From the NCBI GenBank assembly GCA_945875845.1, contig CAMCMB010000036.1, forward strand, positions 2,053-66,052: a stretch of DNA of 64,000 nt. Direction: 5' to 3'. Under the pieces are notes generated by a model. It was not told where the DNA came from and made no database searches. It saw nothing but the letters and a program-made list of their open reading frames with translations. A program made the translations under genes and the position numbers. Source of the stretch: Pirellula staleyi DSM 6068 (GTDB lineage Bacteria; Planctomycetota; Planctomycetia; Pirellulales; Pirellulaceae). Below, one piece after another: positions 1 to 14,614 of the stretch (positions are counted from its first letter, which is position 1; the number at the start of each line of letters is the position of its first letter).

Positions 1-1
1 T

Positions 2-340
2 ATCCACCCCATCTGTCGCCGCCCTATCCGTCGGGTCCGCGGAATCTACCTTTGGGGCAGTGTGCCCCGTAACCCAGGATCGACTTAGGAAACCAAGCCC
101 TAGTCTTGGACTTACAGCAAGGACTCCGAACAGGAAGGCAGCTATTAAGGCTGCCGCACTCAGAAGGCCGCACCCAAAAAACCAAATACTTGGCTTTTGA
201 ACGAGATGAATTTGCGCAGAGAAAAGTGTTCCTAGCATTGCGCTTGACCATGCTATGCACACAGCTGCTTTGGTGTCGGCAAAACGTATGTACTCGTTCA
301 GATAGGCGTGTATTTTCCAAAGAAATTCAGAGTTCGGCAT
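2..340 (-). CDS. Partial small membrane protein (N-terminal 113 codons; 3' end lies left of the window), Pycsar-effector/DUF5706-like 2TM domain
   Basis: Hand translation of the minus strand from ATG 340-338 gives MPNSEFLWKIHAYLNEYIRFADTKAAVCIAWSSAMLGTLFSAQIHLVQKPSIWFFGCGLLSAAALIAAFLFGVLAVSPRLGLGF... I checked every triplet and found no stop down to position 2. It is absent from the ORF track because it runs off the edge. An FADTKA motif is followed by two hydrophobic helices, and a purine-rich GAGGGA sits just upstream of the ATG. Confidence 0.55.
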   Translation of the reverse strand, partial: MPNSEFLWKIHAYLNEYIRFADTKAAVCIAWSSAMLGTLFSAQIHLVQKPSIWFFGCGLLSAAALIAAFLFGVLAVSPRLGLGFLSRSWVTGHTAPKVDSADPTDRAATDGVD

Positions 341-375
341 CGTTCCCTCGATCAAGAAACAGTTTTTCGGTCGTG

Positions 376-416
376 ACACGTTAGACTAACACGTGTTCGC
401 CTATAGCGAATATAGC
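376..416. promoter_or_regulatory. Candidate operator cluster in the divergent promoter region between the 2TM gene and the XRE gene
   Basis: Perfect 10-bp palindrome AACACGTGTT at 388-397. ACACGT half-sites at 376-381 and 389-394. Direct repeat TATAGC-GAA-TATAGC at 402-416. Confidence 0.3.
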
Positions 417-491
417 AGCTAACCAAAACAAGTTCAACTAGGGGCGAACAGGTCTGTTGTCGCAACGAATCAGCCATGGTACGATTTGGGA

Positions 492-944
492 ATGGCAGCA
501 AAAAAAGTGGAAAAGCAAATCGAAACGTCACCTCTATCCCGGTTGTCGCAAAACATTCGGGCGGCGCGACTCGCTGCTGGCTTAACTTTGGAGCAGTTAG
601 CGGGCGAATCGGGAATCTCCAAAACCTACCTCTGGGAACTGGAGAACGACGAGAGCGGCCAGAAGCGGCCATCGGCGGAAATACTACTTAAGGTTGCAAA
701 CATCCTTAAGACAACCATCGCAGATTTAATGGGGCTTCCGTCGGTCCAAGTCAACAAAACCAAAGTTGAAGTGAGTCCATCCCTAATCGAGTTCCGAGAC
801 ATGATGGTTAGGATCGAAACACCGCTATCAGATGAAGACCTCCATTCGCTGGCTTCAACTCGTTTTCGAGGTGGGCAGCCCACATCCAAAGAAGGCTGGT
901 ACGATCTCTACTCGGCATTGAAAAGAGCGACTGGAAGGAAATGA
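492..944 (+). CDS. XRE-family helix-turn-helix transcriptional regulator with C-terminal extension
   Basis: HTH_3-type motif LSQNIRAARLAAGLTLEQLAGESGISKTYLWELEND. The track ORF starts at TTG 486; the first ATG is at 492. The stop lies 1 nt before the ImmA start. Confidence 0.85.
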   Translation: MAAKKVEKQIETSPLSRLSQNIRAARLAAGLTLEQLAGESGISKTYLWELENDESGQKRPSAEILLKVANILKTTIADLMGLPSVQVNKTKVEVSPSLIEFRDMMVRIETPLSDEDLHSLASTRFRGGQPTSKEGWYDLYSALKRATGRK

Positions 945-945
945 A

Positions 946-1896
946 ATGCCGAGAAATTCTGGCTCTGTAAGATACCACGAACATGTAATGGCAATCATCG
1001 CGGAAATGGGGTTGGAAGATCCGCGAGAAGCAGTGCGCCAAAAAGCAAGGGTAATGCTAGGTAACCTGCTCCCACTTTTTCCTAACCCGCCGCCATTCAA
1101 CATGCAGGAAATTGCAAGTTGCATTGGACTGCATGCTTCCGATGAAGAACCCAGCTTTAGTGCAGACTCAGAGATTGCCCCCGATGGCGATGGCAATGTC
1201 GTACTACGTATTAACAAGAGTCGCCCAATAACTCGACAACGCTTTAGCATCGCACATGAAATTGGCCACACACTTTTCCCCGATTACCAACTCGCTGTGA
1301 GATGTCGCAAGGCGCATGATAAAAGATGGAATGACGATGATTTCCTGGAAACCCTCTGCGATGTCGCTGCGTCCGAATTCATGTTTCCATTGCCATGGTT
1401 TGAAAACTCCATTGCATCACTACAAATGACTGGCGAAGGGGTTGCTAGCTTGGCTGATGAGTACCAGGCGTCACGAGAAGCAACCGTACGAAGGCTCGTC
1501 GAATTGCACCCAGAACCGATGGCCGCAGTGTTCTTTAGCTGGAAACTGAAACCCGTCGAGCACAAGCAAGTTCGACGCAATGCGGAAAAGCCCTTTCTTT
1601 CCACGATCTTTCGTCCCGATGAGCCCGAAAAGAAGCTCCGCGTCGACTATCCCATCCTGAACGAATCGTTTCGCAATCACGTGCTTGACCACATACCGGT
1701 TCACAAATCGATTCCGAACGATGGTCCCATCTATCAAGCAGCGATGACACTGTCCCCGTGCGATGGAACTGCTGTCGTAAGTTTTGGGCGCATCGAAAAT
1801 GAGTACCACATTGTCGCACTACCAATCTACACCGATGAAGCCGACTTTGGACCGAACAACGCAAGTTCGGTTGTTGCATTGTTGAGGCCTATCTAG
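946..1896 (+). CDS. ImmA/IrrE-family (M78) zinc metallopeptidase
   Basis: HEXXH motif AHEIGHTLF (HEIGH at 1255-1269). About 170 aa follow the peptidase core, as in IrrE/CapP-type proteins. Classic pairing directly behind an XRE repressor. Confidence 0.85.
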   Translation: MPRNSGSVRYHEHVMAIIAEMGLEDPREAVRQKARVMLGNLLPLFPNPPPFNMQEIASCIGLHASDEEPSFSADSEIAPDGDGNVVLRINKSRPITRQRFSIAHEIGHTLFPDYQLAVRCRKAHDKRWNDDDFLETLCDVAASEFMFPLPWFENSIASLQMTGEGVASLADEYQASREATVRRLVELHPEPMAAVFFSWKLKPVEHKQVRRNAEKPFLSTIFRPDEPEKKLRVDYPILNESFRNHVLDHIPVHKSIPNDGPIYQAAMTLSPCDGTAVVSFGRIENEYHIVALPIYTDEADFGPNNASSVVALLRPI

Positions 1897-1901
1897 AGTA
1901 T

Positions 1902-4900
1902 GTGCTTTCATTATCCCCAACGATCAACGGCGAGCCCGAGCAGGTTGCACAATTGGAAATAATCGATAACATCAATCAACTTTTGGGCGACAACCTCAAA
2001 ACAACCATCGCTCCAAAATCGAAGCTTAAGATTGCCGCGTCGTGTTTTTCGATCTATGCGTTCGAATCGCTAAAGAAGGAACTCGAAAAAATCGAGTCCC
2101 TTGAGTTCATTTTCACGTCGCCAACGTTTGTTCCCAACGAAGTCACCGACAAGATCAAGAAGGAACGACGCGAGTTCTATATCCCAAAACTTGAACGCGA
2201 ACGCGGGTTCTACGGAACCGAATTCGAAATCCAACTCAAGAACAAGCTGACCCAACGAGCCATCGCCAAAGAGTGTGCTGAGTGGATGCGAAGGAAAGCT
2301 AAGTTTCGCTCCAATTCCGGCAAAGCTCCGATGCAGCAGTTTGTTTGTGTCCAAAACCCAACGTCCCAAGCCGTTTACTTGCCACTACATGGCTTCACCG
2401 CAGTTGATCTTGGCTACCAGCAAGGCAATGCTGTTTCGAACATCGTCAATAAGATTGACGAACCATCGATGACAGGGATTTATCTTGGATTATTCGACCA
2501 AATCTGGAAAGATCCTGAGAAGCTCCAAGACGTAACATCTAGTCTTTGCGACCACATTGCATCGCTCTATCAGGAAAACTCTCCCGAACGTATCTACTTC
2601 TTGATGCTTTACAACATCTTCAACGACTTCTTAGAAGATATCAGCGACGATGTTCTCCCCAACGACATGACGGGATATCAGGACAGTCTCGTCTGGAAAA
2701 AGCTGTTCAACTTCCAACGGGATGCTGCCACGGGAATCATCAACAAGTTAGAGACCTTCAACGGTTGCATTCTTGCGGACAGCGTGGGGCTTGGAAAAAC
2801 CTTCACCGCGCTCGCCGTTATCAAATACTACGAGCTTCGCAATCGTGGTGTGCTCGTTCTTTGCCCCAAGAAGCTGTCCGACAATTGGCTCACGTTTAAT
2901 CGCAACGTCAAGACAAATTTATTCGCCAAAGATCGATTCAACTATGACGTGCTGTGTCATACGGATCTTGGGCGAACTCGAGGCGAATCATTTGGCACTC
3001 GTCTCGATCAAGTCAACTGGGGCAATTACGACTTGGTCGTTATCGACGAATCGCATAACTTTCGCAATGCGGAAGCCTTCAATGAAAAGGAGACGCGATA
3101 CGACAAGCTTATGAATGCTGTCATTCGGGCAGGTGTCAAAACCAAAGTTCTGATGTTATCGGCTACCCCGGTCAATAATCGTTTCAACGATCTCAAGAAC
3201 CAACTCGCCCTTGCCTACGAGGGAGACACTGAAGCCATCAATCGCAAATTAGATACGACTCGCGACATTAGCGAGATCTTCCGACGTGCTCAGCAAGCCT
3301 TCAATGCATGGACTAAGTTGCCGGCAGATCAGCGAACCAGCGATGCGATTTTGCGGAGTCTCGATTTTGACTTCTTCAAGCTGCTTGATAGTGTCACAAT
3401 CGCGCGATCTCGACGTCACATTCAGACCTTTTACGATACTGCCGAAGCAGGCAAGTTTCCGGTTCGGCTTCCGCCACAATCCTATCGGTGTCCTCTGACT
3501 CATCGCGGTGACGTTCCCAACTTGAACGAAATCTACAACAGTTTGGCATCACTCACATTGGCAGTTTACGCTCCGGTAGCGTACATTCACCCAAGTCGAC
3601 TGCCGTTTTACGCAGAGCAATACGACACCAAATTCGAGAGCGGCAATCGCTTCCGTCAAATCGACCGAGAGCGAAGTTTGCAGAATCTGATGACGGTCAA
3701 CCTCTTGAAGCGACTTGAAAGCAGTATAGAAGCCTTCCGAATCACACTGTCAAAATTGCAGCGCGGTCACCGAAGTTTGCTGGTGAAGATTGAAAAGTTT
3801 CAGCGATCTGGCGTTTCGGATCGCGTATGCGATGCGGGCGTTGGCTACGGAAGCGGTGAGTACGACGAAGACGAGGTTCTTGACCTCGATGCTGTCACCA
3901 CTGGCAAAGTTCAAATCCGTCTTGAAGACATGGACCTGCCTTCGTGGAAAGACGATCTTCAGCGTGATCTGAAGGTCATTGACGAGCTACTAGCTGAAAT
4001 GCAGAAAGTGACGCCAAGGGACGACGCGAAATTGCAGCACTTGCTGGGTTACCTAAAAGGAAAATACGCGTCACCGATAAATCCCGGAAATCGCAAGGTC
4101 CTTATCTTCACTGCTTTCGCGGATACATCGGAATATCTTTACGAGCATGTTGCGCCAGCGATAGCAGAATATGCGGATGCTGCTGCAGGTACTGTCAATC
4201 ACACCGGCGGCCATACAGCCACTGTTTCGGGAACTTTCCCTGCAAGAAGTACGATTGTCGATGAAAGCGGTCGGCCACGACGCTACGACTTTCAATCACT
4301 ATTGACCCTGTTTTCGCCGCGTTCGAAAGAGAAATCGCTCATACTGCCAGACGAACCATCTGAGATCGACGTATTGATCGGCACCGATTGCATCTCCGAA
4401 GGGCAAAACCTGCAGGATTGCGACTGCGTTATCAATTACGACATTCATTGGAACCCAGTGCGAATCATCCAACGTTTCGGCCGCGTTGATCGGATTGGAT
4501 CGCCCAATGATTTCATTCAACTGGTCAACTATTGGCCGGACATCACACTCGATGAATACATCAATCTAAAAGAGCGGGTGGAAAACCGCATGGTAATAGC
4601 GGACATGACCGCGACTGGTGATGACAATGTTCTACTCGATGGCAATCCAGCCAACAGTGAAGTTGCATATCGCAAGGAGCAGCTTCGTCGTCTGCAAGAC
4701 GAAGTCATCGAAATGGAGGACATTAAAACGGGTGTCTCCATTACAGACCTGGGCCTAAACGATTTTCGTATGGATTTGCTCGCCTATGTCAACGCAACTG
4801 GCGATTTAGCCAACGTTCCCAATGGAATGCATAGCGTTGTACCCGCCGAACCGGATCGTGGCTTGCATCCGGGCGTGATCTTCACACTTCGCAATCGAGA

Positions 4901-5282
4901 TTCCAGCGTAAACGTGGGTGGGCATAATCGGTTGCACCCATACTATATGGTCTACGTCGGCAGCGATGGCCGGGTCGTGATGGATTACACCGAAGTCAAA
5001 CGTCTGCTCGATCTAGCACGTGCCGCCTGCAAGGGACGGTCGAAGCATGTCGCGGAAGTCTGCAAACCGTTCAACGATGCGACAGATGATGGGCGGAATA
5101 TGACTTTTTATAGCGATCTGCTCGACGTTGCCATCGGCAGCATCATCGACCGAAAAGAAGAGTCCGACGTCGAAAGTCTGTTTTCCGGCGGACCAACAAC
5201 AGCTCTCGAGGGGAACATCAAGGGTCTTGATGACTTCGAACTGATTGCTTTCCTGGTCATCTTTGACCCCAAGCGAGGGTAG
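1902..5282 (+). CDS. SNF2-family (superfamily 2) helicase, 1126 aa, with uncharacterised N-terminal (~280 aa) and C-terminal (~330 aa) regions
   Basis: Motif I LADSVGLGKTFTA (GLGKT 2787-2801), motif II VVIDESHNFRN (DESH 3045-3056), motif III LMLSATPVNN, motif V GQNLQDCDCVINYDIHWNP, motif VI QRFGRVDRIGS. GTG start 5 nt after the ImmA stop. Confidence 0.9.
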   Translation: MLSLSPTINGEPEQVAQLEIIDNINQLLGDNLKTTIAPKSKLKIAASCFSIYAFESLKKELEKIESLEFIFTSPTFVPNEVTDKIKKERREFYIPKLERERGFYGTEFEIQLKNKLTQRAIAKECAEWMRRKAKFRSNSGKAPMQQFVCVQNPTSQAVYLPLHGFTAVDLGYQQGNAVSNIVNKIDEPSMTGIYLGLFDQIWKDPEKLQDVTSSLCDHIASLYQENSPERIYFLMLYNIFNDFLEDISDDVLPNDMTGYQDSLVWKKLFNFQRDAATGIINKLETFNGCILADSVGLGKTFTALAVIKYYELRNRGVLVLCPKKLSDNWLTFNRNVKTNLFAKDRFNYDVLCHTDLGRTRGESFGTRLDQVNWGNYDLVVIDESHNFRNAEAFNEKETRYDKLMNAVIRAGVKTKVLMLSATPVNNRFNDLKNQLALAYEGDTEAINRKLDTTRDISEIFRRAQQAFNAWTKLPADQRTSDAILRSLDFDFFKLLDSVTIARSRRHIQTFYDTAEAGKFPVRLPPQSYRCPLTHRGDVPNLNEIYNSLASLTLAVYAPVAYIHPSRLPFYAEQYDTKFESGNRFRQIDRERSLQNLMTVNLLKRLESSIEAFRITLSKLQRGHRSLLVKIEKFQRSGVSDRVCDAGVGYGSGEYDEDEVLDLDAVTTGKVQIRLEDMDLPSWKDDLQRDLKVIDELLAEMQKVTPRDDAKLQHLLGYLKGKYASPINPGNRKVLIFTAFADTSEYLYEHVAPAIAEYADAAAGTVNHTGGHTATVSGTFPARSTIVDESGRPRRYDFQSLLTLFSPRSKEKSLILPDEPSEIDVLIGTDCISEGQNLQDCDCVINYDIHWNPVRIIQRFGRVDRIGSPNDFIQLVNYWPDITLDEYINLKERVENRMVIADMTATGDDNVLLDGNPANSEVAYRKEQLRRLQDEVIEMEDIKTGVSITDLGLNDFRMDLLAYVNATGDLANVPNGMHSVVPAEPDRGLHPGVIFTLRNRDSSVNVGGHNRLHPYYMVYVGSDGRVVMDYTEVKRLLDLARAACKGRSKHVAEVCKPFNDATDDGRNMTFYSDLLDVAIGSIIDRKEESDVESLFSGGPTTALEGNIKGLDDFELIAFLVIFDPKRG

Positions 5283-5284: not shown

Positions 5285-5983
5285 GTGAACAAAGCAGGGG
5301 GAACACTATTCGCTTGGCCGAAGCAGGCCGAGTTTGGCCGCAAATTGAATAAGGAACTATTCTACGCGGGTGCTCGCAATAATCGAAAGCTAAAAGAATT
5401 GTTCACGGATCAAGTTGCGCGTGTCGCATGGAAGTACAAGCTCGCGTCGTCGACTCTCAATACGCCAGCGACCGTCGACGTTCCCGAGATCGAAGTTATC
5501 CAGATTGATGTTAGCGGAACAGATTTTGATCCAGCTATCCTCATCGCGATCGACAAAGCAATTCCAAATCCCACTATTCACGAAATCCATAGTGCTGGGC
5601 GTGTGAAGCAATCCGCGGCCTATAAGCGAGCCAGTGAGTCGGATGCAAACGCCTGGGTCATCAGTCATTACCTCTCCAGTGACTGGCAACCCGTGGATGC
5701 TGTTCGAATGCCGCTGCCAACATCTCTTAACCTGGGCATACTCTACGCCAGTCTGCTTCGAACGATGATCGATCTACTGCCGCAAAATGGGGAACCGTTG
5801 CGATCCCATGTAGAGCGTCATGGACAAGTCCTCCAACTTCGTCGTGATGCAGAACGCATTAGTCAAAAGATGAATGCTGAAAAGCAGCTCAATCGAAAAG
5901 TCGAGTGGAACTCGCAACTTCGATCCGTCAATCAAGAAATTCAAAAACTTACAAGAACTCCATTGCAGGAATCCAATGCCTGA
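5285..5983 (+). CDS. DUF4391-like protein (function unknown)
   Basis: 232 aa. The pattern FAWPKQAEFGRKLNKELFY...VARVAWKYKLASSTLN...EIEVIQIDV...LIAIDKAIPNP matches my recollection of DUF4391. GTG start 2 nt after the helicase stop; the stop overlaps the methylase start (ATGCCTGA). Confidence 0.6.
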   Translation: MNKAGGTLFAWPKQAEFGRKLNKELFYAGARNNRKLKELFTDQVARVAWKYKLASSTLNTPATVDVPEIEVIQIDVSGTDFDPAILIAIDKAIPNPTIHEIHSAGRVKQSAAYKRASESDANAWVISHYLSSDWQPVDAVRMPLPTSLNLGILYASLLRTMIDLLPQNGEPLRSHVERHGQVLQLRRDAERISQKMNAEKQLNRKVEWNSQLRSVNQEIQKLTRTPLQESNA

Positions 5984-7844
5984 AAAGCTAAAAATGCATA
6001 GCCCGGATTTGATCGCTTCCAATATCGATTGCATTGCGGAATTGTTTCCGAACTGTGTCACTGAAGCGGCAGGCGAAAACGGCCTAGTGACACGATTGAT
6101 TGACTTTGATTTACTTCGCCAAGAGTTGTCCGGAGACATCGTCGAGGGACCGCTTGAGCGCTATCATCTCAACTGGCCTGGTAAGCGAGAGGCGATGCTG
6201 GCAGCTAACGCCCCAATCGCAAAAACGCTACGTCCCTGTCGCGAAGAAAGCGTCGACTTCGACACTACAAAAAATTTGTTCATCGAAGGCGATAATTTGG
6301 AAGCGTTGAAGCTATTGCAGGAGACTTATCTCGGCAAAGTCAAGATGATCTACATCGACCCACCATACAATACGGGAAATGACTTTATCTACGACGATGA
6401 CTTTGCAGAAGATGCGGATGCCTTTCTTTTGCGATCAGAGCAAGTAGAGGAATCGGGCGTAAGGCTCATCGCAAATAGTAACGCAAATGGGCGTTTTCAT
6501 TCCGACTGGCTTTCGATGATGCTTCCACGGCTAAAGTTAGCTCGAAATGTTCTGCGTGAAGACGGATGCATCTTCATTTCGATCGATGACAACGAGATAT
6601 CCAGTCTTCGTAAGTTGTGTGATGAAATCTTTGGGCCATCCAACTTTATTGCGACGATTGTTTGGCAAAAACGTTATGTATCGAACGTCACTGCGAAATG
6701 GCTTTCAGACATGCACGACTATGTACTTGTCTACGCGAAACAAAGTGATTTATTGACAATCAATGATTGGAAACGCACAACCGAACAGGAATCCGCATAC
6801 AGAAATCCAGACGATGACCCGCGCGGTGTATGGCGTGCTCAAGATCTTTCAGCGAGTAAACCGTATGAAGCAGGGAAATTTACAATTACAGGACCAAATG
6901 GAGATTTCTTCACTCCACCTCCAAATCGCTATTGGAGATGTAATCGCGAACAGTTCGACCGTTGGTGCAAAGACAAACGAATATGGTGGGGTGTGAACGG
7001 TGATGCTAGGCCAATGCTAAAGGCATTCCTTTCAGAATCAACACGTGGAATTAAGCCGCATACTTGGTGGGGGCATGAATTTGCCGGTCACAACAAGGAG
7101 GCCACCCTCGAGTTAAAGGCTTTGTTCGATGGCGACGCTCCGTTTGACACGCCAAAGCCCGTGAAATTAATGAAGAAAATTCTGGAACTTGTGACAAGTG
7201 AAGGTGACATTGTAATGGACTTTTTTGCCGGTTCCGCGACTTTCGCTCAAGCAGTTCTTGAAATGGGAAATGCTCGTTTCATTGCCGTTCAGGCTGGTGA
7301 GATGGTTCAAGGTATCGATTCGTCGCCGAAATTCCAAACCATTGCTGAAGTAGCAAAAGAGAGGATTCGCCGGATATGTTCATCGCAGTCTGATAAAAAC
7401 CGAATGTTTGCGGAAGATTATTACAGTGGCTTCCGTGTCCTAAAAATCGATTCGTCCAACATGAAGGATGTTTACTATTCACCACAAGATACTTCGCAGG
7501 CGATGCTAAGTGGATTGGTCGACAACATCAAGCCTGATCGGACTGGGGAGGATTTGCTGTTCCAAGTCCTACTCGACTGCGGCGTTGACCTGGGACTTCC
7601 CCTGAAGCGAGAAACGCTCGACAATTGTGAAGTGTTCATCGTTAATGAAAGCAAGCACACGGTTCCCGATCTGATCGCCTGCTTCGAGGTAGATTTGCCT
7701 GAATCGCTTGTCACAACCATCGCTGACAAAAAGCCGCTGCGAGCCGTGTTTCGCGATCAATGCTACGCGACCGACGCTGAAAAAATCAACGTAGAACAAA
7801 TCTTCAAGCAACTATCGCCCAACACACAATTAAAGAGCCTCTAA
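5976..7844 (+). CDS. Site-specific DNA methyltransferase, beta-class N6A/N4C (Type III Mod-like, N6_N4_Mtase family)
   Basis: Motif IV IYIDPPYNTGNDF (DPPY 6357-6368) precedes motif I VMDFFAGSATFAQAV, which is the beta-class order. The track ORF starts at 5874, but ATG 5976 (MPEKLKMHSPD...) overlaps the upstream stop by 8 nt and is the likelier start. Confidence 0.9.
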   Translation: MPEKLKMHSPDLIASNIDCIAELFPNCVTEAAGENGLVTRLIDFDLLRQELSGDIVEGPLERYHLNWPGKREAMLAANAPIAKTLRPCREESVDFDTTKNLFIEGDNLEALKLLQETYLGKVKMIYIDPPYNTGNDFIYDDDFAEDADAFLLRSEQVEESGVRLIANSNANGRFHSDWLSMMLPRLKLARNVLREDGCIFISIDDNEISSLRKLCDEIFGPSNFIATIVWQKRYVSNVTAKWLSDMHDYVLVYAKQSDLLTINDWKRTTEQESAYRNPDDDPRGVWRAQDLSASKPYEAGKFTITGPNGDFFTPPPNRYWRCNREQFDRWCKDKRIWWGVNGDARPMLKAFLSESTRGIKPHTWWGHEFAGHNKEATLELKALFDGDAPFDTPKPVKLMKKILELVTSEGDIVMDFFAGSATFAQAVLEMGNARFIAVQAGEMVQGIDSSPKFQTIAEVAKERIRRICSSQSDKNRMFAEDYYSGFRVLKIDSSNMKDVYYSPQDTSQAMLSGLVDNIKPDRTGEDLLFQVLLDCGVDLGLPLKRETLDNCEVFIVNESKHTVPDLIACFEVDLPESLVTTIADKKPLRAVFRDQCYATDAEKINVEQIFKQLSPNTQLKSL

Positions 7845-7914: not shown

Positions 7915-9606
7915 ATGACTCGAACTGAAACAGAATTGCAAAAACTGCTAATCCAGCTCATTTCAGATTGGGAGAGCGAAGTCGTGGAGTTCAAGAGCGT
8001 TGGAGACTCGTATTCTACGTCCGATATCGGCAAGTACTTGACCGCATTATCAAACGAAGCAAATTTGCGTGAAGTTGAGACGGCGTGGTTGGTTTTCGGT
8101 GTCGACAACAAGACGCGTCAGATCGTTGACTCGGACTACCGTCGCGATCGTGCTAGACTCGAAGGACTAAAGCATCAGATGACCGAGGGAAGTTCTCCTT
8201 CCATTTGTTTTCGCGAGATCCACGAAATCGCCGTCGCAGGCAAACGGGTGCTGATGTTCGAGATACCCGCCGCCCCACGTGGTATCGCAATTAGCTGGAA
8301 TGGACACTTCTATGCACGCAGTGGGGAAAGCCTAGGACCGCTTTCCATCGTAAAGCAAGACGAGATCCGCGGTCAAACCTTGCAGACGGACTGGACTGCC
8401 GCTGTGGTCTCTGAAGCGTCGCGAGCAGATCTGTCCGATGCGGCTGTTTCGCAGGCACGCGCTCGATTCGCTCTTCGTCACGCAAATCAGTTTACAAACG
8501 ACGAAATCGAAGCCTGGGACGATGCAGCGTTTCTGGATCGAGCCGGTCTGACAATCAACGGCATGATTACTAGATCGGCTCTGTTACTCGTCGGTAAACC
8601 GGATTCGGTCCATCTCCTCAGCCCATATCTCGCTCAACTAGTTTGGAAGCTGGTTGGCGTGGAAGCTGGCAATCAGATTTTTACGCCACCCTACTTGCTT
8701 GCGACGAGTGCTCTCTATGAAAAGGTGCGCAACGTGCAACTGAGGATACTTCCAGCCGATTCGTTAGTCGCGATTGAAGTTGCTAAATACGACCAAAAGA
8801 TTGTTCTTGAATCGCTGCACAATTGCATAGCCCACCAAGACTACCGTCTCGGGGCACGCGTGGTCGTAACGGAGATGATCGATCGCTTGGTCTTGGAGAA
8901 TTCGGGATCGTTTGTCGATGGTGAGCCGCTGGATTACCTGTCGGGTCATAAAACGCCTAGGTTTTATCGCAATCCGTTTTTGATGCAAGCGATGACACGG
9001 CTGAACATGATCGATACGATGGGCTATGGAATTCACAGAATGTTCGTTGGGCAAGCGAAACGTTATTTCCCGCTTCCGGACTATGACCTATCGGAATCGG
9101 GAACGGTTAGACTCACCATCCACGGGGCGATTGTTGATCCTGCATACTCGCGGGTTTTGATTGAGAACACCGATTTGCCTCTGCAAGATGTGTTCGCTCT
9201 TGATCGCGTTCAAAAGCAACTACCCATTGATGATGTAGCCACGAAACGATTGCGTCGCGCAGGATTGATCGAAGGAAGGCGTCCGAACATCCATATTTCC
9301 GGCAACGTAGCATCGGCAACAGATCGACGAGCCGAGTACATTCGAAATCGCCATCAAGATGACATTCATTACAAGCGACTGATCTTAGATTTCCTAAGTC
9401 GGTTTGATTCTGCTGGCAGGGAGGATATCGATAAAATGCTATTGAAGAACCTAAGCGACGTTTTGACGGAGGACCAGAAGCGAAACCGGGTGCGTAACCT
9501 GCTTCAGTCCATGCGTCGGGACGGGCTGATCGAGAATCTTGGCCCGCGGGTTCAACCGACCTGGTCGCTGACAACCATCGGGCGTTCCGCATTAACTAAA
9601 TCATGA
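7915..9606 (+). CDS. AlbA_2 (Schlafen-like divergent AAA) + HATPase_c_4 + C-terminal winged-helix protein; putative ATP-binding DNA-binding regulator
   Basis: N-terminus ESEVVEFKSVGDSYSTSDIGKYLTALSNEANL...AWLVFGVDNKTRQIV is AlbA_2-like. The middle region ESLHNCIAHQDY...LVLENSGSF is HATPase_c_4-like. C-terminus LLQSMRRDGLIENLG is wHTH-like. Confidence 0.7.
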   Translation: MTRTETELQKLLIQLISDWESEVVEFKSVGDSYSTSDIGKYLTALSNEANLREVETAWLVFGVDNKTRQIVDSDYRRDRARLEGLKHQMTEGSSPSICFREIHEIAVAGKRVLMFEIPAAPRGIAISWNGHFYARSGESLGPLSIVKQDEIRGQTLQTDWTAAVVSEASRADLSDAAVSQARARFALRHANQFTNDEIEAWDDAAFLDRAGLTINGMITRSALLLVGKPDSVHLLSPYLAQLVWKLVGVEAGNQIFTPPYLLATSALYEKVRNVQLRILPADSLVAIEVAKYDQKIVLESLHNCIAHQDYRLGARVVVTEMIDRLVLENSGSFVDGEPLDYLSGHKTPRFYRNPFLMQAMTRLNMIDTMGYGIHRMFVGQAKRYFPLPDYDLSESGTVRLTIHGAIVDPAYSRVLIENTDLPLQDVFALDRVQKQLPIDDVATKRLRRAGLIEGRRPNIHISGNVASATDRRAEYIRNRHQDDIHYKRLILDFLSRFDSAGREDIDKMLLKNLSDVLTEDQKRNRVRNLLQSMRRDGLIENLGPRVQPTWSLTTIGRSALTKS

Positions 9607-9816: not shown

Positions 9817-12800
9817 ATGAAAATTCAATTCAAAGTCCAAGATTACCAAACCGACGCAGTCCGGGCTGTCGTCGACTGTTTCGCCGGTCAGCCGCTCATT
9901 GCGACGCCGGATTATGAGATTGACCCTGGCGTAAATAAGAAACGAATCAAGCCGGTTGGACAGTTTACCCAACAAGACCTTCTCGACTCGCTCAAATTCG
10001 AGGGCTTTCGCAACGCCGATCTTCGTTTAACCATTTCTCAGCTGCTTGCAAACATTCAACAGATACAGCTCGAGCAAAACATCCCACAGTCTATATCGCT
10101 AGTTCCAAGCCAGTCATGCAAACTCAATCTCGATATCGAGATGGAAACCGGTACTGGCAAAACCTACTGCTACATCAAGACGATGTTCGAACTGCATGAG
10201 AAGTACGGATGGAATAAATTCATTGTTGTTGTCCCGAGCATTGCGATTCGCGAAGGGGTTCAAAAGTCATTCGAGATCACCGCTGAGCATTTTCTGCAAC
10301 AGTATGGTAGGCAGGCACGCCACTTTACTTACGACAGCAAGCAATTGCACGAATTGGAGAGCTTTTCATCTAACGCCGGTATTAATGTGATGATCATCAA
10401 CGCACAGGCGTTCAATGCATTCAAGGAGGACGCCGCGAACAATGCGGCCCGGATCATGTTCTCGCAACGAGATGACTTTCAATCTCGTCGTCCCATCGAT
10501 GTTCTAAAGAAGAACAAACCGATTCTGATCCTCGATGAACCGCAACGTATGGTGGGAACACAGACAGTAAAAGCCTTGGCTCAGTTCGATCCGCTTATGA
10601 TCCTGCGATACTCGGCGACACATAAGGTGGAGCACAATAAAATCTACCGGCTAGACGCTTTGGATGCCTACAACCAAAAACTGGTAAAGAAGATCGCGGT
10701 TCGCGGAATCGCGACGAAAGGGCTCAAGGGCACAAACGGCTATCTTTACCTAGAAAGCATCCGCCTGAGTAAAAGCAAACCGCCAGTTGGGGTTTTGGAA
10801 ATCGAACAGAAAACCGCGAGCGGAATTAAGCGGATTCGGAAATTGGTTAGTAAGAATACGAACCTCTTTGTCGAGTCGGGTGAACTAGATCAATACCAAG
10901 GCTTTGTCGTGGCCGACATCGACGCTCGCGGAGTGGAGGGCTTCGGCGAAGGATACATCGAGTTTACCAACGGAGAGCGTCTGACGGTCGGCACCGCTTG
11001 TGGCGATACGAATGAGGATACACTTCGTCGGCTTCAAATTCGCGAATCGATTAAAGCTCACTTTGAGAAGGAGCAAGAGCTTTATCCTAAGGGAATCAAG
11101 GTTCTCTCGCTTTTCTTCATCGACACTGTAGCCAAGTATCGCCAATACGACAAAGATGGCAACAAGCTTCTAGCGGACTATGGCCGATTTTTCGAGGACG
11201 AGTATGCAAAGATCCGGGAAGAATTTCGGACGTTGTTCGCTGAAGAAGCAAAGTACCAGTCCTACCTGGACGGCATAGATACCGCTCATACGCACGATGG
11301 CTACTTCTCGATCGACAAAAAGGGGCGATTGGTTGATCCTGAAGTTAAAAAGTCGGGAGACACCAAAGGTGAGACCGACGATGTCGATGCCTATGACCTT
11401 ATCCTAAAGGATAAAGAAACGCTTTTGTCCTTGCCTACGCAAGACGATGATGACCTGTCTCGACGGAGAAAGAATGTACGGTTCATCTTCTCGCACTCAG
11501 CACTTCGCGAGGGATGGGACAATCCGAATGTATTCGTGATCGGCATGCTCAAGCCGACTGACTACGAGGGGTCAACTGTCACGCGTCGCCAAGAGGTCGG
11601 CCGAGGACTGCGACTATGCGTTGATGCGACGGGCCAAAGGATTGACGACAAAGCAATTGTCCACGATGTCAACGTTCTAACTGTTGTCGCCAACGAGAGC
11701 TTCCAAGAGTTTGTAACCAAGCTTCAAGGCGAAATGCGAGAGTCTCTGTCAGCTCGCCCTCGATATGCGAGTGAAGTGTATTTTACAGGCAAACTATTGC
11801 GAACAGAGACAGGGGACAAGACAGTCGACGCCAAGATGGCTTCTCAAATCTTTTTTTACCTTGTTCAAAACGGGTATACGGATTACGACAAACGCATTAC
11901 TTCGAAGTACCACGATGCAAAACAGAATGGGGTTCTTGCCGAACTTCCTGAGTCACTGAAGCCTTTCGCCGAACCGATATTCAAACTCATCGATAGCGTT
12001 TTCGACGATTCGAAATTGCCAGGCTTCGGCAACGGCCGAAGCCCGAAGGGAAACCCTATCAATGCGAAAAACTTGGCTCGCAAAGAGTTTCAAGATCTGT
12101 GGAATAGAATCAATCATAAAGCCGTATATGTGGTTGATTTTGAAACAGATGAACTCATCGTCAACTGCGTCGGGACCCTCAACGCAGAATTGAACGTGTC
12201 AAAGCTTCGATACGAGGTCCACCGCGGCGTTCAAAAAGACGTTAACACGGTAGATGATCTCGATAACGGTACTGCGTTCGAGGTAAACGGGAACCAAACC
12301 GACATTGTCGATTCACCTGTCTCGACCGATATTCGTTACGACTTAGTTGGAAAGCTCAGTGAGGCGACACAACTAACTCGGAAGACAGTAGTCAGTATCT
12401 TGTCACGAATAAGTCCCATCACTTTTGAAATGTTTCGCATAAATCCCGAAGAATTTCTCGCCAAGGCTGCTAGCAAGATAAACGAGCAAAAAGCGACAAT
12501 CATCATCGAGCATTTGGTTTACAACCCACTCGATGGACAGCATTACACGGACATTTTCACCGCAGACAAGAAGGCTGACATATCCAGTGCATACGAAGCG
12601 CAGCGACACGTCTTCGACTATGTAATCACCGATAGCAAAAATGAACGTACCTTTGTCGAGACGCTAGACAAATCAACCGAAGTCGTTGTTTACGCCAAGC
12701 TCCCCAGGGCATTCTCAATACCAACGCCAGTCGGTAACTACAACCCCGACTGGGCGGTTGCATTCGAGCAAGACAAAGTCAAGCATGTTTTCTTCATCGC

Positions 12801-12954
12801 GGAAACCAAGGGCAGCATGAACTCGCTCGAACTGAATAAGATCGAGACCGCGAAAATCGCATGCGCCCGGAAGTTCTTCGCGAAGATTACGTCGGAACAA
12901 GTCAAATATGATGTAGTGGATAGCTACGCGACACTAATGGGACTGGTGATTTAG
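9817..12954 (+). CDS. Type III restriction enzyme Res subunit (SF2 helicase-ATPase + C-terminal PD-(D/E)xK nuclease)
   Basis: Walker A LDIEMETGTGKTYC and DEAH-like PILILDEPQRM. C-terminal YNPDWAVAF...VFFIAETKG, with D at 12748-12750 and E-T-K at 12802-12810. Confidence 0.85.
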   Translation: MKIQFKVQDYQTDAVRAVVDCFAGQPLIATPDYEIDPGVNKKRIKPVGQFTQQDLLDSLKFEGFRNADLRLTISQLLANIQQIQLEQNIPQSISLVPSQSCKLNLDIEMETGTGKTYCYIKTMFELHEKYGWNKFIVVVPSIAIREGVQKSFEITAEHFLQQYGRQARHFTYDSKQLHELESFSSNAGINVMIINAQAFNAFKEDAANNAARIMFSQRDDFQSRRPIDVLKKNKPILILDEPQRMVGTQTVKALAQFDPLMILRYSATHKVEHNKIYRLDALDAYNQKLVKKIAVRGIATKGLKGTNGYLYLESIRLSKSKPPVGVLEIEQKTASGIKRIRKLVSKNTNLFVESGELDQYQGFVVADIDARGVEGFGEGYIEFTNGERLTVGTACGDTNEDTLRRLQIRESIKAHFEKEQELYPKGIKVLSLFFIDTVAKYRQYDKDGNKLLADYGRFFEDEYAKIREEFRTLFAEEAKYQSYLDGIDTAHTHDGYFSIDKKGRLVDPEVKKSGDTKGETDDVDAYDLILKDKETLLSLPTQDDDDLSRRRKNVRFIFSHSALREGWDNPNVFVIGMLKPTDYEGSTVTRRQEVGRGLRLCVDATGQRIDDKAIVHDVNVLTVVANESFQEFVTKLQGEMRESLSARPRYASEVYFTGKLLRTETGDKTVDAKMASQIFFYLVQNGYTDYDKRITSKYHDAKQNGVLAELPESLKPFAEPIFKLIDSVFDDSKLPGFGNGRSPKGNPINAKNLARKEFQDLWNRINHKAVYVVDFETDELIVNCVGTLNAELNVSKLRYEVHRGVQKDVNTVDDLDNGTAFEVNGNQTDIVDSPVSTDIRYDLVGKLSEATQLTRKTVVSILSRISPITFEMFRINPEEFLAKAASKINEQKATIIIEHLVYNPLDGQHYTDIFTADKKADISSAYEAQRHVFDYVITDSKNERTFVETLDKSTEVVVYAKLPRAFSIPTPVGNYNPDWAVAFEQDKVKHVFFIAETKGSMNSLELNKIETAKIACARKFFAKITSEQVKYDVVDSYATLMGLVI

Positions 12955-12957: not shown

Positions 12958-13722
12958 ATGAACCTTCAATTGTTTGACGAGACGTTTGAGCATTTGCCCT
13001 CTTCGCCGATCGTGGAGTCGGTTATTCAATGGACAGCGAGAGCAAGCGTTGCCGCGAATGATACCACTTGGCATAATCGCTTTTCGGAACTACTGCCGGA
13101 GTTTCCGAAGGCTCAGCCTGTGCACTGGCAATCAATCGAAACGATGATCGATTCTGACGGGTCGTCTCAGCAGACGGTGAATCGGCCTTGGATTGGCTTG
13201 CGTCTGGAGAGCGAAGACAGCACATGGATCGTGCAAGCTGATTGGCAGGGCGTGATTCTCAGTCGCTTGAGCCCCTACGTTGGTTGGACAGAATTCTCGA
13301 CGCTTGGAATCAAGGTTTGGAAGTCGTTCCTTGCGTGTACTCAACCGACAGAGATCCAAAAGCTCGGCGTTCGATCGATCAATCAAATCCCTATCGAATC
13401 TTTTGACGACGTACGTTATTATCTTAAACACCCGCCTGAGTGCTTAGATGACGCAGAGCTACCGGCAATGGGGTTTATGTACCAAAGTTTGCATCGAATC
13501 CCAAACCATCCTTATCAGGTAAACGTAATCCGCACTATCCCTCCCAAGAATTTGGGAACCACCGTACCGCCTAGCCTCATTGTAGATATTGATGCTATGA
13601 CAACTGATGGTCACTTAGAAGTGGGTAGTACCCAGGAACACTTTAAGGCCCTAAAATGGGTTAAGGACAAGACGTTTTTCAACTTAATTACCGATAAAGC
13701 AATCGAGATGTTTCGAAAATGA
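12958..13722 (+). CDS. Hypothetical protein, TIGR04255-like
   Basis: 254 aa. SPIVESVIQW near the N-terminus, then GVRSINQIPI, SLIVDIDAMT and C-terminal FFNLITDKAIEMF resemble the conserved blocks I recall for TIGR04255. Starts 3 nt after the Res stop. Confidence 0.5.
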   Translation: MNLQLFDETFEHLPSSPIVESVIQWTARASVAANDTTWHNRFSELLPEFPKAQPVHWQSIETMIDSDGSSQQTVNRPWIGLRLESEDSTWIVQADWQGVILSRLSPYVGWTEFSTLGIKVWKSFLACTQPTEIQKLGVRSINQIPIESFDDVRYYLKHPPECLDDAELPAMGFMYQSLHRIPNHPYQVNVIRTIPPKNLGTTVPPSLIVDIDAMTTDGHLEVGSTQEHFKALKWVKDKTFFNLITDKAIEMFRK

Positions 13723-14171
13723 CAAGGTTCACCACGGGGTTTAGCGACGCGGCTCAAATGGCAAGTCGATACTTGGTTGAGCAAGTTAACGGTATGCGTC
13801 GATCTCAGACTTTCGGTCTGGACAGCGAGCTTCGAGAGGAACTAGGAGACGTTTGGAGCGAATGCCAGACAGATAACTGGGATGGGTACAAAGCGTTGCC
13901 AGTGTCTCAGGATACCTTGCAACAAGTCTATGAATTGCTTGAGGAGCTTCCGGATGATTTTCCAGCTCCAAGCTTGTCTGCTGATCCAGATGGTGCTTTA
14001 GCCCTTGAGTGGTATACTTCCAAAGACCGGCAAATCTCCGTTAGTATCATTGATGGTGAGATTCATTATGCCGCGAAATTGGGCTCCGAGCGCCACCATG
14101 GCAACTATTTGCTGGTCGATGGCTGGCCGAAGTCGTTGTTTTCTTTGATTCAGAAAATTGCTGGTCGATGA
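13719..14171 (+). CDS. Hypothetical protein (150 aa)
   Basis: ATGA overlap with both the upstream and the downstream gene. Protein-like composition, including NWDGYKALPVS...PAPSLSADPDGALALEW. I recognised no domain. Confidence 0.6.
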   Translation: MTRFTTGFSDAAQMASRYLVEQVNGMRRSQTFGLDSELREELGDVWSECQTDNWDGYKALPVSQDTLQQVYELLEELPDDFPAPSLSADPDGALALEWYTSKDRQISVSIIDGEIHYAAKLGSERHHGNYLLVDGWPKSLFSLIQKIAGR

Positions 14172-14614
14172 TTGACGAAAACGATGTTCCCGATATCGAC
14201 GGCCGCGAAGAGCTTTCACGATGCGTCGTTTACAGCAAACATATCCGAGCTCCGAAGCCTGACGGTTCAGAACTTGGACGAGTTAAACCAAACGCATTCG
14301 TTCCGCATCCGTATGACGATTTGTCTGTAAACAGCCACGTGCAATCGACTGATGCTGAAATTTGGCTTCTTTGCCGCAACGTTGCTTTGAAGCAACAAAA
14401 GACGTTGTATGGCCGAGCAACAGTACTCGCAAGTGACTTTCAGTCGAAGAAGTTGACAATACAACCTGATCCCATTCGAGCTGACGAAGACAGCGAATTC
14501 CCCAACCCAAATCACGCGATCGTCGTAGGCTGGCCAGCTGAGAAGTCTGCCCAGATCGCAATCGCGCAAGACATTGCGGATAGTTGTAGGTTCTCTGAGC
14601 CGCCTAGCAACTAG
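14168..14614 (+). CDS. Hypothetical protein (148 aa)
   Basis: 4-nt ATGA overlap with the preceding gene. Plausible globular sequence (ELSRCVVYSKHIR...VKPNAFVPHPYDDLSVNSH...NPNHAIVVGWPAEKSAQIAIAQDIA). I prefer it over the antisense ORF 14267-14854. Confidence 0.6.
   Translation: MIDENDVPDIDGREELSRCVVYSKHIRAPKPDGSELGRVKPNAFVPHPYDDLSVNSHVQSTDAEIWLLCRNVALKQQKTLYGRATVLASDFQSKKLTIQPDPIRADEDSEFPNPNHAIVVGWPAEKSAQIAIAQDIADSCRFSEPPSN

What the first reader, a model, noticed from the sequence alone, without database searches (positions are those of the whole stretch)
2..1896. Edge-truncated 2TM effector-like ORF (missed by the ORF track) diverges from a CapH/CapP-like XRE + ImmA pair
The minus-strand ORF 340->2 is open to the window edge. 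It encodes an FADTKA motif followed by two TM helices, which I associate with Pycsar-effector/DUF5706-type membrane-disrupting effectors. It is transcribed divergently from an XRE repressor and ImmA/IrrE metallopeptidase pair. That is the logic of ImmR/ImmA (ICEBs1), DdrO/IrrE (Deinococcus) and CapH/CapP (CBASS), where a stress- or DNA-damage-activated protease cleaves the repressor. So a second immune operon may lie just left of the window, and one damage-responsive switch could control both it and the helicase/R-M array.
Basis: partly seen in the sequence, partly recalled or inferred. Interest (0 to 1): 0.65.

Follow-up and report, generated by a model that had tools for sequence, protein, structure and literature searches.

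The report
Pycsar operon under a CapH/CapP switch
The cut-off gene at the window edge is the membrane effector of a two-gene Pycsar anti-phage system, and it faces a CapH/CapP DNA-damage switch of a published kind, so this is a well-supported but ordinary example, with a neat swap of defence cassettes around the switch.

Summary

- **Effector:** ORF 340->2 is the first 113 codons of a 192-aa PycTM effector (Pfam PF18967 2e-10; PADLOC PycTM 2e-26).
- **Cyclase:** A near-identical contig extends the locus 2 kb leftwards. The next gene is a PycC cyclase (PADLOC 1.7e-123), so a complete Pycsar operon lies just left of the window.
- **Regulators:** The XRE protein is a CapH/DdrO-type repressor with an invariant F|RGGQP cleavage motif. 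The M78 peptidase has the full IrrE/CapP fold.
- **Promoters:** The 151-bp spacer carries back-to-back promoters and repeated GTTCRMC-N-RCGAAY units, found upstream of capH in 28 of 34 related loci.
- **Cassette swap:** The closest relatives share window 387-1896 (spacer, capH, capP) but carry a patatin/CD-NTase/E2 CBASS where the window has Pycsar.
- **Right-hand operon:** A SNF2/DUF4391/type III R-M operon starts 5 bp after capP here. The same operon follows capP in five relatives. Control of both operons by one switch is plausible but untested.

CapH/CapP-regulated defence operons, including Pycsar, are already published, so this is a new member of a known kind. Interest is modest.

The parts
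2..340 (-). pycTM, codons 1-113 of 192. This is the Pycsar membrane effector. The rest of the gene and pycC lie left of the window, at L002 515-1093 and L002 1118-2446.
   Evidence: Translation. 100% match to 192-aa P0001 carrying PF18967. Pfam PycTM 2e-10 and PADLOC PycTM 2e-26 on the full length. The reverse complement of L002 overlaps window 1-854 with 1 mismatch.
341..386 (-). Cassette-specific part of the pycTM 5' leader. It has no homology to the CBASS-bearing relatives.
   Evidence: blastn homology to L004, L005, L011, L022, L047 and L048 begins at window 387-395. Alignment A2.
387..491 (.). Conserved regulatory core that travels with capH-capP. It holds two back-to-back promoters and three operator-like units.
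   Evidence: Alignment A2. 30-locus listing. The motif TCAAC-N3-5-RCGAAY lies within 200 nt upstream of capH in 28 of 34 loci, accounting for 36 of 53 hits in 1.6 Mb.
395..412 (.). Operator-like unit O1, GTTCGCCTATAGCGAATA (palindrome TTCGC-N5-GCGAA). It overlaps the -10 element and predicted start of the leftward promoter.
409..437 (-). Leftward promoter for pycTM-pycC: -35 TTGAAC (437-432), 17-nt spacer, TG-extended -10 TATATT (414-409).
   Evidence: Consensus scan. The same hexamers were found independently in L048. The hexamers are conserved in A2.
432..450 (.). Operator-like unit O2, GTTCAACTAGGGGCGAACA. It overlaps the leftward -35 element.
457..485 (+). Inferred rightward promoter for capH: -35 TTGTCG (457-462), 17-nt spacer, extended -10 TGgTACGAT (477-485). 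The third unit, TTGTCGCAACGAAT (457-470), overlaps it. The ATG lies 6 nt after the -10 element, so the capH mRNA is probably leaderless.
   Evidence: My reading of the sequence. The bases are invariant in A2. The 6-nt spacing from -10 to ATG recurs in L004-L011 and L022. The site scores 8/12, below the scan tool's threshold.
492..944 (+). capH: an XRE-type HTH repressor of 150 aa. The predicted CapP cleavage site is F125|R126, in the motif TRF|RGGQP.
   Evidence: Pfam HTH_3 3.2e-11. PADLOC capH 9.5e-15. PDB 7t5u (best PDB hit; I take it to be the CapH HTH domain of Lau et al.) 6.3e-11, and DdrO 6jq1 4.2e-9 over the full length. FRGxQP is invariant in 29 homologues.
946..1896 (+). capP: an M78 Zn-metallopeptidase of 316 aa with HEIGH at residues 104-108, Cys120 in a candidate cysteine-switch loop, an HTH-like linker and a C-terminal GAF-like domain.
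   Evidence: Pfam Peptidase_M78 1.9e-11. PADLOC capP 1.6e-23. AF2 model with pLDDT 88.5 and pTM 0.85. Foldseek hits to PprI/IrrE at 2.7e-13 and Thauera CapP 7t5t at 4e-8, over ~300 columns. Invariant residues.
1902..5282 (+). SNF2-family helicase starting 5 bp after the capP stop codon. An alternative TTG start lies at 1953.
   Evidence: Pfam SNF2-rel_dom and Helicase_C. PADLOC C3a139 1.8e-124. No + strand terminator-like site lies after the capP stop codon.
5285..5983 (+). DUF4391 protein.
   Evidence: Pfam DUF4391 5.1e-47.
5976..7844 (+). Type III methyltransferase (Mod). This is the 622-aa gene call; the longest ORF starts at 5874.
   Evidence: PADLOC MTase_III 2.6e-210. Gene call in L001.
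7915..9606 (+). SLFN_AlbA_2 / HATPase_c_4 protein inserted between Mod and Res.
   Evidence: Pfam. No tblastn match in the related loci.
9817..12954 (+). Type III restriction enzyme (Res).
   Evidence: PADLOC REase_III 4e-294. Pfam ResIII and RE_endonuc.

Best explanation
**What it is.** The window starts inside a two-gene Pycsar anti-phage operon, pycTM then pycC. It is transcribed leftwards from a promoter that belongs to a portable CapH/CapP regulatory module at window 387-1896.

**Proposed resting state.** CapH dimers sit on repeated GTTCRMC-N-RCGAAY units. These overlap the -10 and -35 elements of the leftward promoter and the -35 element of capH's own promoter. Pycsar is thereby kept nearly silent and capH-capP is autoregulated.

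**Proposed activated state.**
1. Phage infection or DNA damage produces single-stranded DNA.
2. The DNA binds CapP between its peptidase and GAF domains and activates it.
3. CapP cuts CapH at F125|R126, removing its dimerisation helices.
4. CapH leaves the DNA and both promoters fire.
5. PycC then makes a cyclic pyrimidine mononucleotide, most likely cCMP.
6. That signal activates PycTM to damage the membrane and abort the infection.

**Possible coupling to the R-M operon.** The SNF2/DUF4391/type III R-M operon begins 5 bp after capP with no predicted terminator, so it probably receives read-through from the same switch.

**Shown here:** the gene identities, the three-domain fold of CapP, the conserved motifs and promoter hexamers, the module boundaries, and the swap of CBASS for Pycsar.

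**Inferred:** DNA binding, the cleavage site, ssDNA activation, the nucleotide made, and co-transcription of the R-M genes.
For: - **Pycsar identity.** PycTM is supported. PycC is supported (1.7e-123; cytidylate cyclase 8jsf, 5.5e-32, with the class III motifs FMDIESST and GDAVMAYFGG aligned).
- **CapH.**, plus the invariant FRGxQP motif. Lau et al. mapped E. coli CapH cleavage to F82|R83.
- **CapP.** HEIGH motif and invariant residues. Confident model. Full-length fold match to ssDNA-bound PprI and to Thauera CapP.
- **Promoter and operators.** The leftward promoter was detected in the window and again in L048. The operator motif is position-specific in 28 of 34 loci.
- **Orientation.** The divergent layout matches the published rule for capHP.
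- **Same cassette elsewhere.** The same PycTM-then-PycC cassette faces capHP in L012 and L049.
- **Module boundaries.** Homology to CBASS-bearing relatives starts at 387-395 and, in L047, ends exactly at 1896.
- **Published link.** The literature states that CapH+CapP (and CapW) regulate adjacent Pycsar, CBASS, BREX and DISARM operons.
Against: - Nothing here is experimental. No transcription, DNA-binding or cleavage data exist for this locus.
- CapP matches characterised CapP only weakly by sequence (7t5t, E 1.5e-3). It is closer to IrrE, so details such as the cysteine switch may differ. The loop around Cys120 is modelled with pLDDT below 50.
- The rightward promoter scores only 8/12 and was not found by the scan.
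- The operator half-sites are too short to be significant across the window on their own.
- The PycC clade also occurs with a CapW-type regulator or with none, so CapHP control is not intrinsic to this Pycsar.
Confidence: 0.78

Rival explanations
1. CapH/CapP controls only the divergent Pycsar operon. The SNF2/DUF4391/type III R-M array is expressed on its own, from a constitutive promoter inside or just after capP. It sits there only because defence genes cluster in islands.
For: Lau et al. found that the operon associated with capHP always lies on the opposite strand. L047 (CapP 87%) has the identical module with homology ending exactly at the capP stop codon and no R-M array. L005 and L016 also lack it. 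In L004 and L048 the gap from capP to SNF2 is about 112-117 bp, and homology of SNF2 to the window starts at 1954, so the true start here may be TTG 1953 with a 56-bp gap. From general knowledge, a methyltransferase normally needs steady expression.
Against: The gap is 5 bp in the window and in L011, 1 bp in L022, and 2 bp to the inserted gene in L006. No + strand terminator or promoter-like site was found between capP and SNF2 in the window or in L048. The capHP-SNF2-DUF4391-Mod-Res order is kept in five relatives whose CapP identity ranges from 53 to 93%. Other capHP loci have type I R-M, Hma, or DruE-like or UvrD-like helicases co-oriented downstream.
Confidence: 0.45
2. The XRE/M78 pair is an ImmR/ImmA-type immunity switch of an integrated mobile element or prophage, or a COG2856/XRE toxin-antitoxin pair. 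It is not a regulator of the neighbouring defence genes.
For: ImmA/IrrE-family annotation in databases. The PDB entry 7t5t names the molecule 'CapP toxin'. The island has lower G+C (0.47-0.50) than the rest of the window (0.526).
Against: No Pfam match to an integrase or phage protein was found among the ORFs scanned, and the window holds no tRNA gene. Housekeeping genes follow from about 15 kb. In about 30 related loci the pair faces CBASS, Pycsar, SIR2-HerA or E1/E2/JAB operons across a conserved promoter region. CapP has the GAF domain of IrrE/CapP.
Confidence: 0.05
3. The edge ORF is a CBASS-type 2TM effector or an unrelated small membrane protein, not a Pycsar effector.
For: The fragment also hits PADLOC CBASS '2TM Effector' models, at 4e-5 to 5e-3. 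The fragment alone fails Pfam PycTM.
Against: PycTM models score far better: 2e-26 against 2.5e-10 on the full length. The adjacent gene is PycC, not a CD-NTase. The same gene pair recurs in L012, L049, L051 and L053.
Confidence: 0.03

Closest known systems
CapH/CapP of CBASS operons (E. coli MS115-1, Thauera sp. K11; Lau et al. 2022, bioRxiv 10.1101/2022.04.27.489752; Calloji et al. 2026, PMC13228613)
   Same: - An HTH repressor plus an HExxH peptidase with an HTH-like linker and a GAF domain.
- Encoded upstream of, and divergent from, an abortive-infection operon.
- An F|R cleavage site at the start of the repressor's C-terminal dimerisation region.
- A conserved Cys about 12-13 residues after the second His, like the cysteine switch.
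- The closest relatives of this very module do regulate a CBASS operon.
   Different: - Sequence similarity to characterised CapP is low (7t5t E 1.5e-3; 11% identity in the fold alignment).
- The CapH C-terminal domain resembles DdrO (WxxLYxxLKR).
- The cargo here is Pycsar, not CBASS.
- A second, co-oriented R-M-type operon abuts capP, an arrangement Lau et al. did not describe.
- The putative operators overlap the -10 and -35 elements, whereas the E. coli site is a 22-bp element upstream of the -35.
DdrO/IrrE (PprI) of Deinococcus
   Same: These are the best structural and sequence matches for both proteins: PprI/IrrE 8sln, 8slm and 3dte, and DdrO 6jq1 and 6rmq. The logic is the same: an ssDNA-stimulated peptidase cleaves a dimeric repressor. 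The cleavage position aligns (DdrO ...ELRG against TRF|RGG here).
   Different: DdrO controls a dispersed DNA-repair regulon through RDRM sites (own knowledge). Here the module is a 1.5-kb portable unit wedged between defence operons in Planctomycetota.
Pycsar (PycC + PycTM; Tal et al. 2021, Cell, cited from my own knowledge; solved cytidylate cyclase 8jsf)
   Same: A class III cyclase with an AGS-C domain sits next to a PF18967 membrane effector.
   Different: The effector gene precedes the cyclase. This order is shared by the whole clade (L012, L049, L051, L053). PycTM carries an insertion of about 30 residues (83-114). Expression is put under a damage switch.
CapK/CapS loci sandwiched between an R-M operon and an abortive-infection operon (EMBO J 2026, PMC13373217)
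   Same: An ssDNA-sensing regulator pair lies between a front-line R-M system and a late-acting suicide system. That paper proposes that such pairs coordinate the two systems.
   Different: The proteins are unrelated (a kinase plus a STAS-wHTH protein). There, the R-M operon is upstream and the regulated operon downstream on the same strand. Here, the suicide system is divergent and the R-M system follows the regulators.
ImmR/ImmA of ICEBs1 and phage-like elements
   Same: An XRE repressor is cleaved by an M78-family peptidase after DNA damage.
   Different: No mobile-element genes are present. CapP has the GAF domain and IrrE-like fold.

Membership tests
Pycsar | A PycC-type class III nucleotide cyclase | tested here: met
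   L002 1118-2446: PADLOC PycC PDLC00764 1.7e-123 over the full length. Pfam AGS_C 2.2e-11. PDB cytidylate cyclase 8jsf 5.5e-32.
Pycsar | An adjacent effector gene, here of the PycTM type (PF18967) | tested here: met
   The full-length 192-aa protein scores 41.5 bits against Pfam PycTM (cut-off 27.2) and 2e-26 against PADLOC PycTM. It lies 24 bp upstream of pycC.
Pycsar | Synthesis of cCMP or cUMP on infection, and effector activation by it | not testable with these tools
   Only homology to a cytidylate cyclase is available.
CapH/CapP regulator pair | CapH: an N-terminal XRE HTH plus a C-terminal dimerisation domain carrying an F|R (DdrO: L|R) cleavage site | tested here: met
   HTH_3 3.2e-11. 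PADLOC capH 9.5e-15. 7t5u 6.3e-11 and DdrO over the full length. FRGxQP is invariant in 29 homologues. The published site is F82|R83. Actual cleavage was not tested.
CapH/CapP regulator pair | [quoted passage not shown] | tested here: met
   HEIGH at 104-108, with E135 invariant. AF2 model pLDDT 88.5. Foldseek hits to PprI/IrrE at 2.7e-13 and CapP 7t5t at 4e-8, aligned over about 294-323 columns.
CapH/CapP regulator pair | Cysteine-switch loop. Lau et al. found it in only 33% of CBASS CapPs, so it is not obligatory. | tested here: inconclusive
   Cys120 lies 12 residues after His108 (Thauera: C113 lies 13 after H100). It is at least 90% conserved. The loop 119-130 is modelled with pLDDT below 50, so Zn contact cannot be judged.
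CapH/CapP regulator pair | Encoded upstream of, and on the opposite strand to, the regulated defence operon | tested here: met
   pycTM (minus strand) and capH (plus strand) diverge across 341-491.
CapH/CapP regulator pair | CapH binds the promoter, and ssDNA-activated CapP cleaves it | not testable with these tools
   Only conserved operator-like repeats over the promoter elements are available.
ImmR/ImmA of mobile elements | Located in, and controlling, an integrative element or prophage (integrase, excisionase, transfer or phage genes) | tested here: not met
   No Pfam match to an integrase or phage protein among the ORFs scanned between 1 and 30.7 kb, and no tRNA gene in the window. Neighbours in about 30 related loci are defence operons.
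Type III restriction-modification (right-hand operon) | Mod methyltransferase plus Res helicase-nuclease | tested here: met
   PADLOC MTase_III 2.6e-210 and REase_III 4e-294. It has extra SNF2 helicase, DUF4391 and AlbA_2 genes, so it is an extended variant.

The most novel reading that the evidence does not exclude
The 1.5-kb capH-capP module may be a two-sided hub. One set of CapH operators over back-to-back promoters would gate an abortive-infection cassette on the left (Pycsar here, CBASS in the closest relatives). By read-through from capP it would also gate a DNA-targeting helicase/R-M operon on the right.

In that case, ssDNA produced when the R-M system cuts phage DNA would feed forward through CapP. 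It would boost the R-M system and arm the suicide system as a second line. The cassettes on either side would be exchanged by recombination at fixed junctions (window ~387 and 1896).
Probability: 0.3. Interest if true: 0.6.

Novelty: new member of a known kind. Interest (0 to 1): 0.35.

Why it matters
The locus gives a clean natural experiment. The same regulator module, promoter included, is found with Pycsar or with CBASS on one side, and with or without an R-M array on the other.

That makes it a good place to test two questions. The first is how damage-sensing regulators are re-used by different defence systems. The second is whether front-line R-M and late abortive-infection systems are transcriptionally coupled. 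That idea has so far been proposed in print for the unrelated CapK/CapS pair.

It also extends CapH/CapP and Pycsar to Planctomycetota, where this CapP clade is common. The basic mechanism is already published, so the gain is incremental.

Tried and rejected
- **capH look-ups.** Exact-sequence look-ups of capH with starts at 492 and 486 found no recorded gene. The capP look-up gave only a contig that starts at window 835. The left flank came from the full-length PycTM protein instead.
- **Pfam on the fragment.** Pfam on the 113-aa fragment alone gave nothing at E<=0.01 and only 0.67 for PycTM.
- **Word-indexed search for PycTM.** It found just 2 relatives of PycTM. The exhaustive HMMER search showed 641, so the low number was a sensitivity artefact.
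- **Window-wide operator searches.** Searches for TTCG-N7-CGAA and GCGAACAG were not above chance. Support for the operators rests on conservation of position across loci, not on enrichment.
- **A first reading of the 442-aa neighbour.** Its AGS_C hit first suggested a CD-NTase (CBASS). I rejected this because PADLOC PycC scores 1.7e-123 against 8.7e-8 for CD-NTase models, and the class III cyclase motifs are present.
- **A single long inverted repeat.** I considered 391-406/438-453 as the operator. The 30-locus comparison fits repeated 15-19-bp units better.
- **Not attempted.** I did not extend beyond the 2,044 bp left of the window. L002 ends in a truncated ASCH-like gene.
Full report
**1. 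Observation**

The minus-strand frame from 340 down to 2 is open for 113 codons and runs off the window. It begins MPNSEFLWKIHAYLNEYIRFADTKAAV. FADTKA sits at residues 20-25. It is followed by a moderately hydrophobic stretch (about 25-45, Kyte-Doolittle maximum 1.44) and a strongly hydrophobic one (50-86, maximum 2.46).

The ORF lister omits ORFs that leave the source, which explains why it was 'missed'. The fragment alone matches PADLOC PycTM models at 5e-14. It does not reach Pfam significance (PF18967 E 0.67).

**2. What lies left of the window**

A protein search returned P0001, a 192-aa protein that is 100% identical over the 113 residues and carries PF18967. Looking up its encoding contigs gave L002, a 2,898-bp metagenome contig from ENA ERZ27280308. 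Its reverse complement overlaps window 1-854 with a single mismatch at 852, and it extends 2,044 bp further left.

On L002 the ORF continues to 192 aa. Full length, it scores Pfam PycTM 2e-10 (41.5 bits, cut-off 27.2) and PADLOC PycTM 2e-26.

A 442-aa gene starts 24 bp later. It matches PADLOC PycC over its full length at 1.7e-123 and carries Pfam AGS_C. Its best solved relative is a cytidylate cyclase, 8jsf, at 5.5e-32, with the class III cyclase motifs aligned.

So a complete two-gene Pycsar operon, effector first, lies across and beyond the window edge. An exhaustive HMMER search found 641 representative relatives of the effector. Most match in two stretches (1-80 and 115-190), so residues ~83-114 are an insertion.

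Beyond pycC there is only the first ~50 codons of an ASCH-like gene.

**3. The regulator pair**

The XRE protein (492-944) has an HTH_3 domain. Its best defence-family hit is capH at 9.5e-15. Its best PDB hit, 7t5u, which I take to be the CapH HTH domain of Lau et al., scores 6.3e-11. It aligns over its full length with Deinococcus DdrO.

An alignment of 29 homologues shows an invariant FRGxQP motif. The F125|R126 bond matches the experimentally mapped F82|R83 cut in E. coli CapH and aligns with the ELRG region of DdrO.

The peptidase (946-1896) has HEIGH at 104-108 and a conserved Cys120, and it belongs to a family of about 316-aa proteins common in Planctomycetota. An AlphaFold model (pLDDT 88.5, pTM 0.85) matches ssDNA-bound PprI/IrrE (2.7e-13) and Thauera CapP (4e-8) across about 300 columns. 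That covers the peptidase, the HTH-like linker and the GAF domain.

The loop holding Cys120 is poorly modelled, so a cysteine switch is likely but not shown.

**4. The 151-bp spacer**

A consensus scan finds one promoter. It points left, with -35 TTGAAC at 437-432 and a TG-extended -10 TATATT at 414-409. The identical hexamers were found independently in relative L048.

Reading the sequence, I infer a rightward promoter with -35 TTGTCG at 457-462 and an extended -10 TGgTACGAT at 477-485. Its -10 element ends 6 nt before the capH ATG. That spacing recurs in at least nine relatives and suggests a leaderless capH mRNA.

Three related units cover these elements:
- GTTCGCCTATAGCGAATA at 395-412
- GTTCAACTAGGGGCGAACA at 432-450
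- TTGTCGCAACGAAT at 457-470

The derived pattern TCAAC-N3-5-RCGAAY occurs 53 times in 1.6 Mb of fetched sequence. Of these, 36 lie within 200 nt upstream of capH on the capH strand, in 28 of 34 loci. The half-sites alone are not enriched in the window. These units are the likely CapH operators. Binding itself is inferred.

**5. Comparative genomics**

A scan of species-representative genomes with a CapP alignment gave 43 loci. Two more loci came from look-ups. capH always directly precedes capP.

The closest relatives (L011 93%, L047 87%, L005 85%, L048 70%, L004 68%, L006 58%, L022 53% CapP identity) carry a different divergent partner. It is a CBASS operon of patatin effector, CD-NTase and E2 (scanned in L011: PADLOC 2e-107, 1.5e-116, 2e-57).

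DNA homology between the window and these loci begins at window 387-395. In L047 it ends exactly at 1896. So the spacer core plus capH-capP is a discrete 1.5-kb module.

On the far side of the cassette, 75 bp of the ASCH-like gene is 92% identical between L002 and L011. This indicates replacement of CBASS by Pycsar, or the reverse, between the same flanks.

The same PycTM-PycC clade faces capHP in L012 and L049. It follows a CapW-like WYL regulator in L053 and has no regulator in L051. Other capHP loci face SIR2-HerA or E2/E1/JAB operons.

**6. The right-hand operon and the 'one switch' idea**

The right-hand genes run on the capP strand from 5 bp after its stop codon:
- SNF2 helicase, 1902-5282
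- DUF4391, 5285-5983
- type III Mod, 5976-7844
- an AlbA_2 protein, 7915-9606
- type III Res, 9817-12954

No + strand terminator-like site follows the capP stop codon, and no + strand promoter-like site was found, in the window or in L048. The capHP-SNF2-DUF4391-Mod-Res order is kept in L004, L006, L011, L022 and L048.

Other capHP loci have other systems co-oriented downstream:
- type I R-M (scanned in L014; L032 carries homologues by clustering)
- Hma (L025)
- a DruE-like helicase with a NERD/UvrD protein (L012)
- a UvrD-like helicase (L010)

Against this, L047, L005 and L016 lack any such operon. Lau et al. describe only opposite-strand targets. The SNF2 start may be TTG 1953, because homology to the more distant relatives (L004, L006, L022, L048) starts at 1954. 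Dual control is therefore plausible, at about 0.3-0.45, but not shown.

**7. Mechanism**

*Shown here:* the identities, the fold, the motifs, the module boundaries and the cassette swap.

*Taken from the family's published biochemistry:* CapH dimers repress, ssDNA activates CapP, and CapP cuts CapH at the F|R bond.

*Inferred for this locus:*
1. Operator occupancy over both promoters.
2. Cleavage at F125|R126.
3. Induction of pycTM-pycC.
4. Synthesis of cCMP, or possibly cUMP.
5. Membrane damage by PycTM.
6. Possible read-through into the R-M genes.

**8. Comparison and novelty**

CapH/CapP is a published regulator of CBASS, DISARM and ubiquitin-like operons. A 2026 paper lists Pycsar among the operons regulated by CapW or CapH+CapP. 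The idea of a damage sensor sandwiched between R-M and abortive-infection operons is published for CapK/CapS.

This locus is therefore a new member of a known kind. Three things appear new, though they are incremental:
- the precisely bounded portable module
- the in-place swap of CBASS for Pycsar
- the recurrent co-oriented DNA-targeting operons downstream of capP

**9. Context**

The defence island ends by about 14 kb. Housekeeping genes follow (a BamB-like protein, a rhomboid protein, CysRS, ArgRS and HisG). There is no tRNA gene and no Pfam match to an integrase among the ORFs scanned. Relatives place the organism in Planctomycetota.

Noticed in passing
window 387-1896, compared with L047 4028-5537: In L047 (CapP 87%) the DNA homology to the window is exactly 387-1896 at 85.9% identity. 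It ends at the capP stop codon, and both flanks are unrelated. The spacer core plus capH-capP therefore behaves as a discrete 1.5-kb recombination unit.
   Followed up: partly
L002 2556-2897 (about 1.7-2.0 kb left of window position 1); L011 6011-6487: An ASCH-like gene (LSIRQPWAEQIMRGEK) lies just beyond the cassette. It is intact (158 aa) in L011. In L002 it is recognisable only for about 50 codons, after which the reading frame turns into unrelated sequence. This is either a truncated remnant or a second junction.
   Followed up: partly
window 835-854 (inside capH): In sample ERZ27280308 the assembly breaks inside capH. Contig L002 ends at window 854 and contig L001 starts at window 835, with one mismatch at 852. 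This may reflect co-existing strain variants around the module.
   Followed up: no
L006 10942-12789; L007 10947-12797 and 12907-13284: A 615-aa HEC-05/PDC-M55C-like gene is inserted between capP and SNF2 in L006 and L007. L007 keeps only a 125-aa remnant of the SNF2 helicase.
   Followed up: partly
window 7915-9606: The SLFN_AlbA_2/HATPase_c_4 gene between Mod and Res has no counterpart in the related loci. L048 has none, L011 has a 136-aa ORF, and L004 and L022 have a 405-aa gene in that position.
   Followed up: no
window 5874-5983: The longest Mod ORF (start 5874) overlaps DUF4391 by 110 bp. The database gene call starts at 5976, an 8-bp overlap, which looks like the real start.
   Followed up: no
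L053 4630-15304: The same PycTM-then-PycC clade sits behind a CapW/BrxR-like HTH-WYL-WCX regulator and is followed by a Wadjet jetABCD operon. In L051 it sits on a plasmid-like contig with a second small cyclase and a CYTH protein, and no regulator.
   Followed up: no
L005 1870-4303: In L005 (low coverage, CapP 85%), capP and the patatin gene are each split into two ORFs. This is either a decaying locus or sequencing error.
   Followed up: no
window 12958-14854: Three ORFs after Res have no Pfam hit: 254 aa and 150 aa on the + strand, and 195 aa on the - strand. They may be the tail of the defence island.
   Followed up: no
P0001 residues 83-114 (window 2-94 and beyond): This PycTM carries an insertion of about 30 residues (GFLSRSWVTGHTAPKVDSADPTDRAATDGVDR...) between the second hydrophobic segment and the conserved C-terminal half. 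Most relatives lack it.
   Followed up: partly
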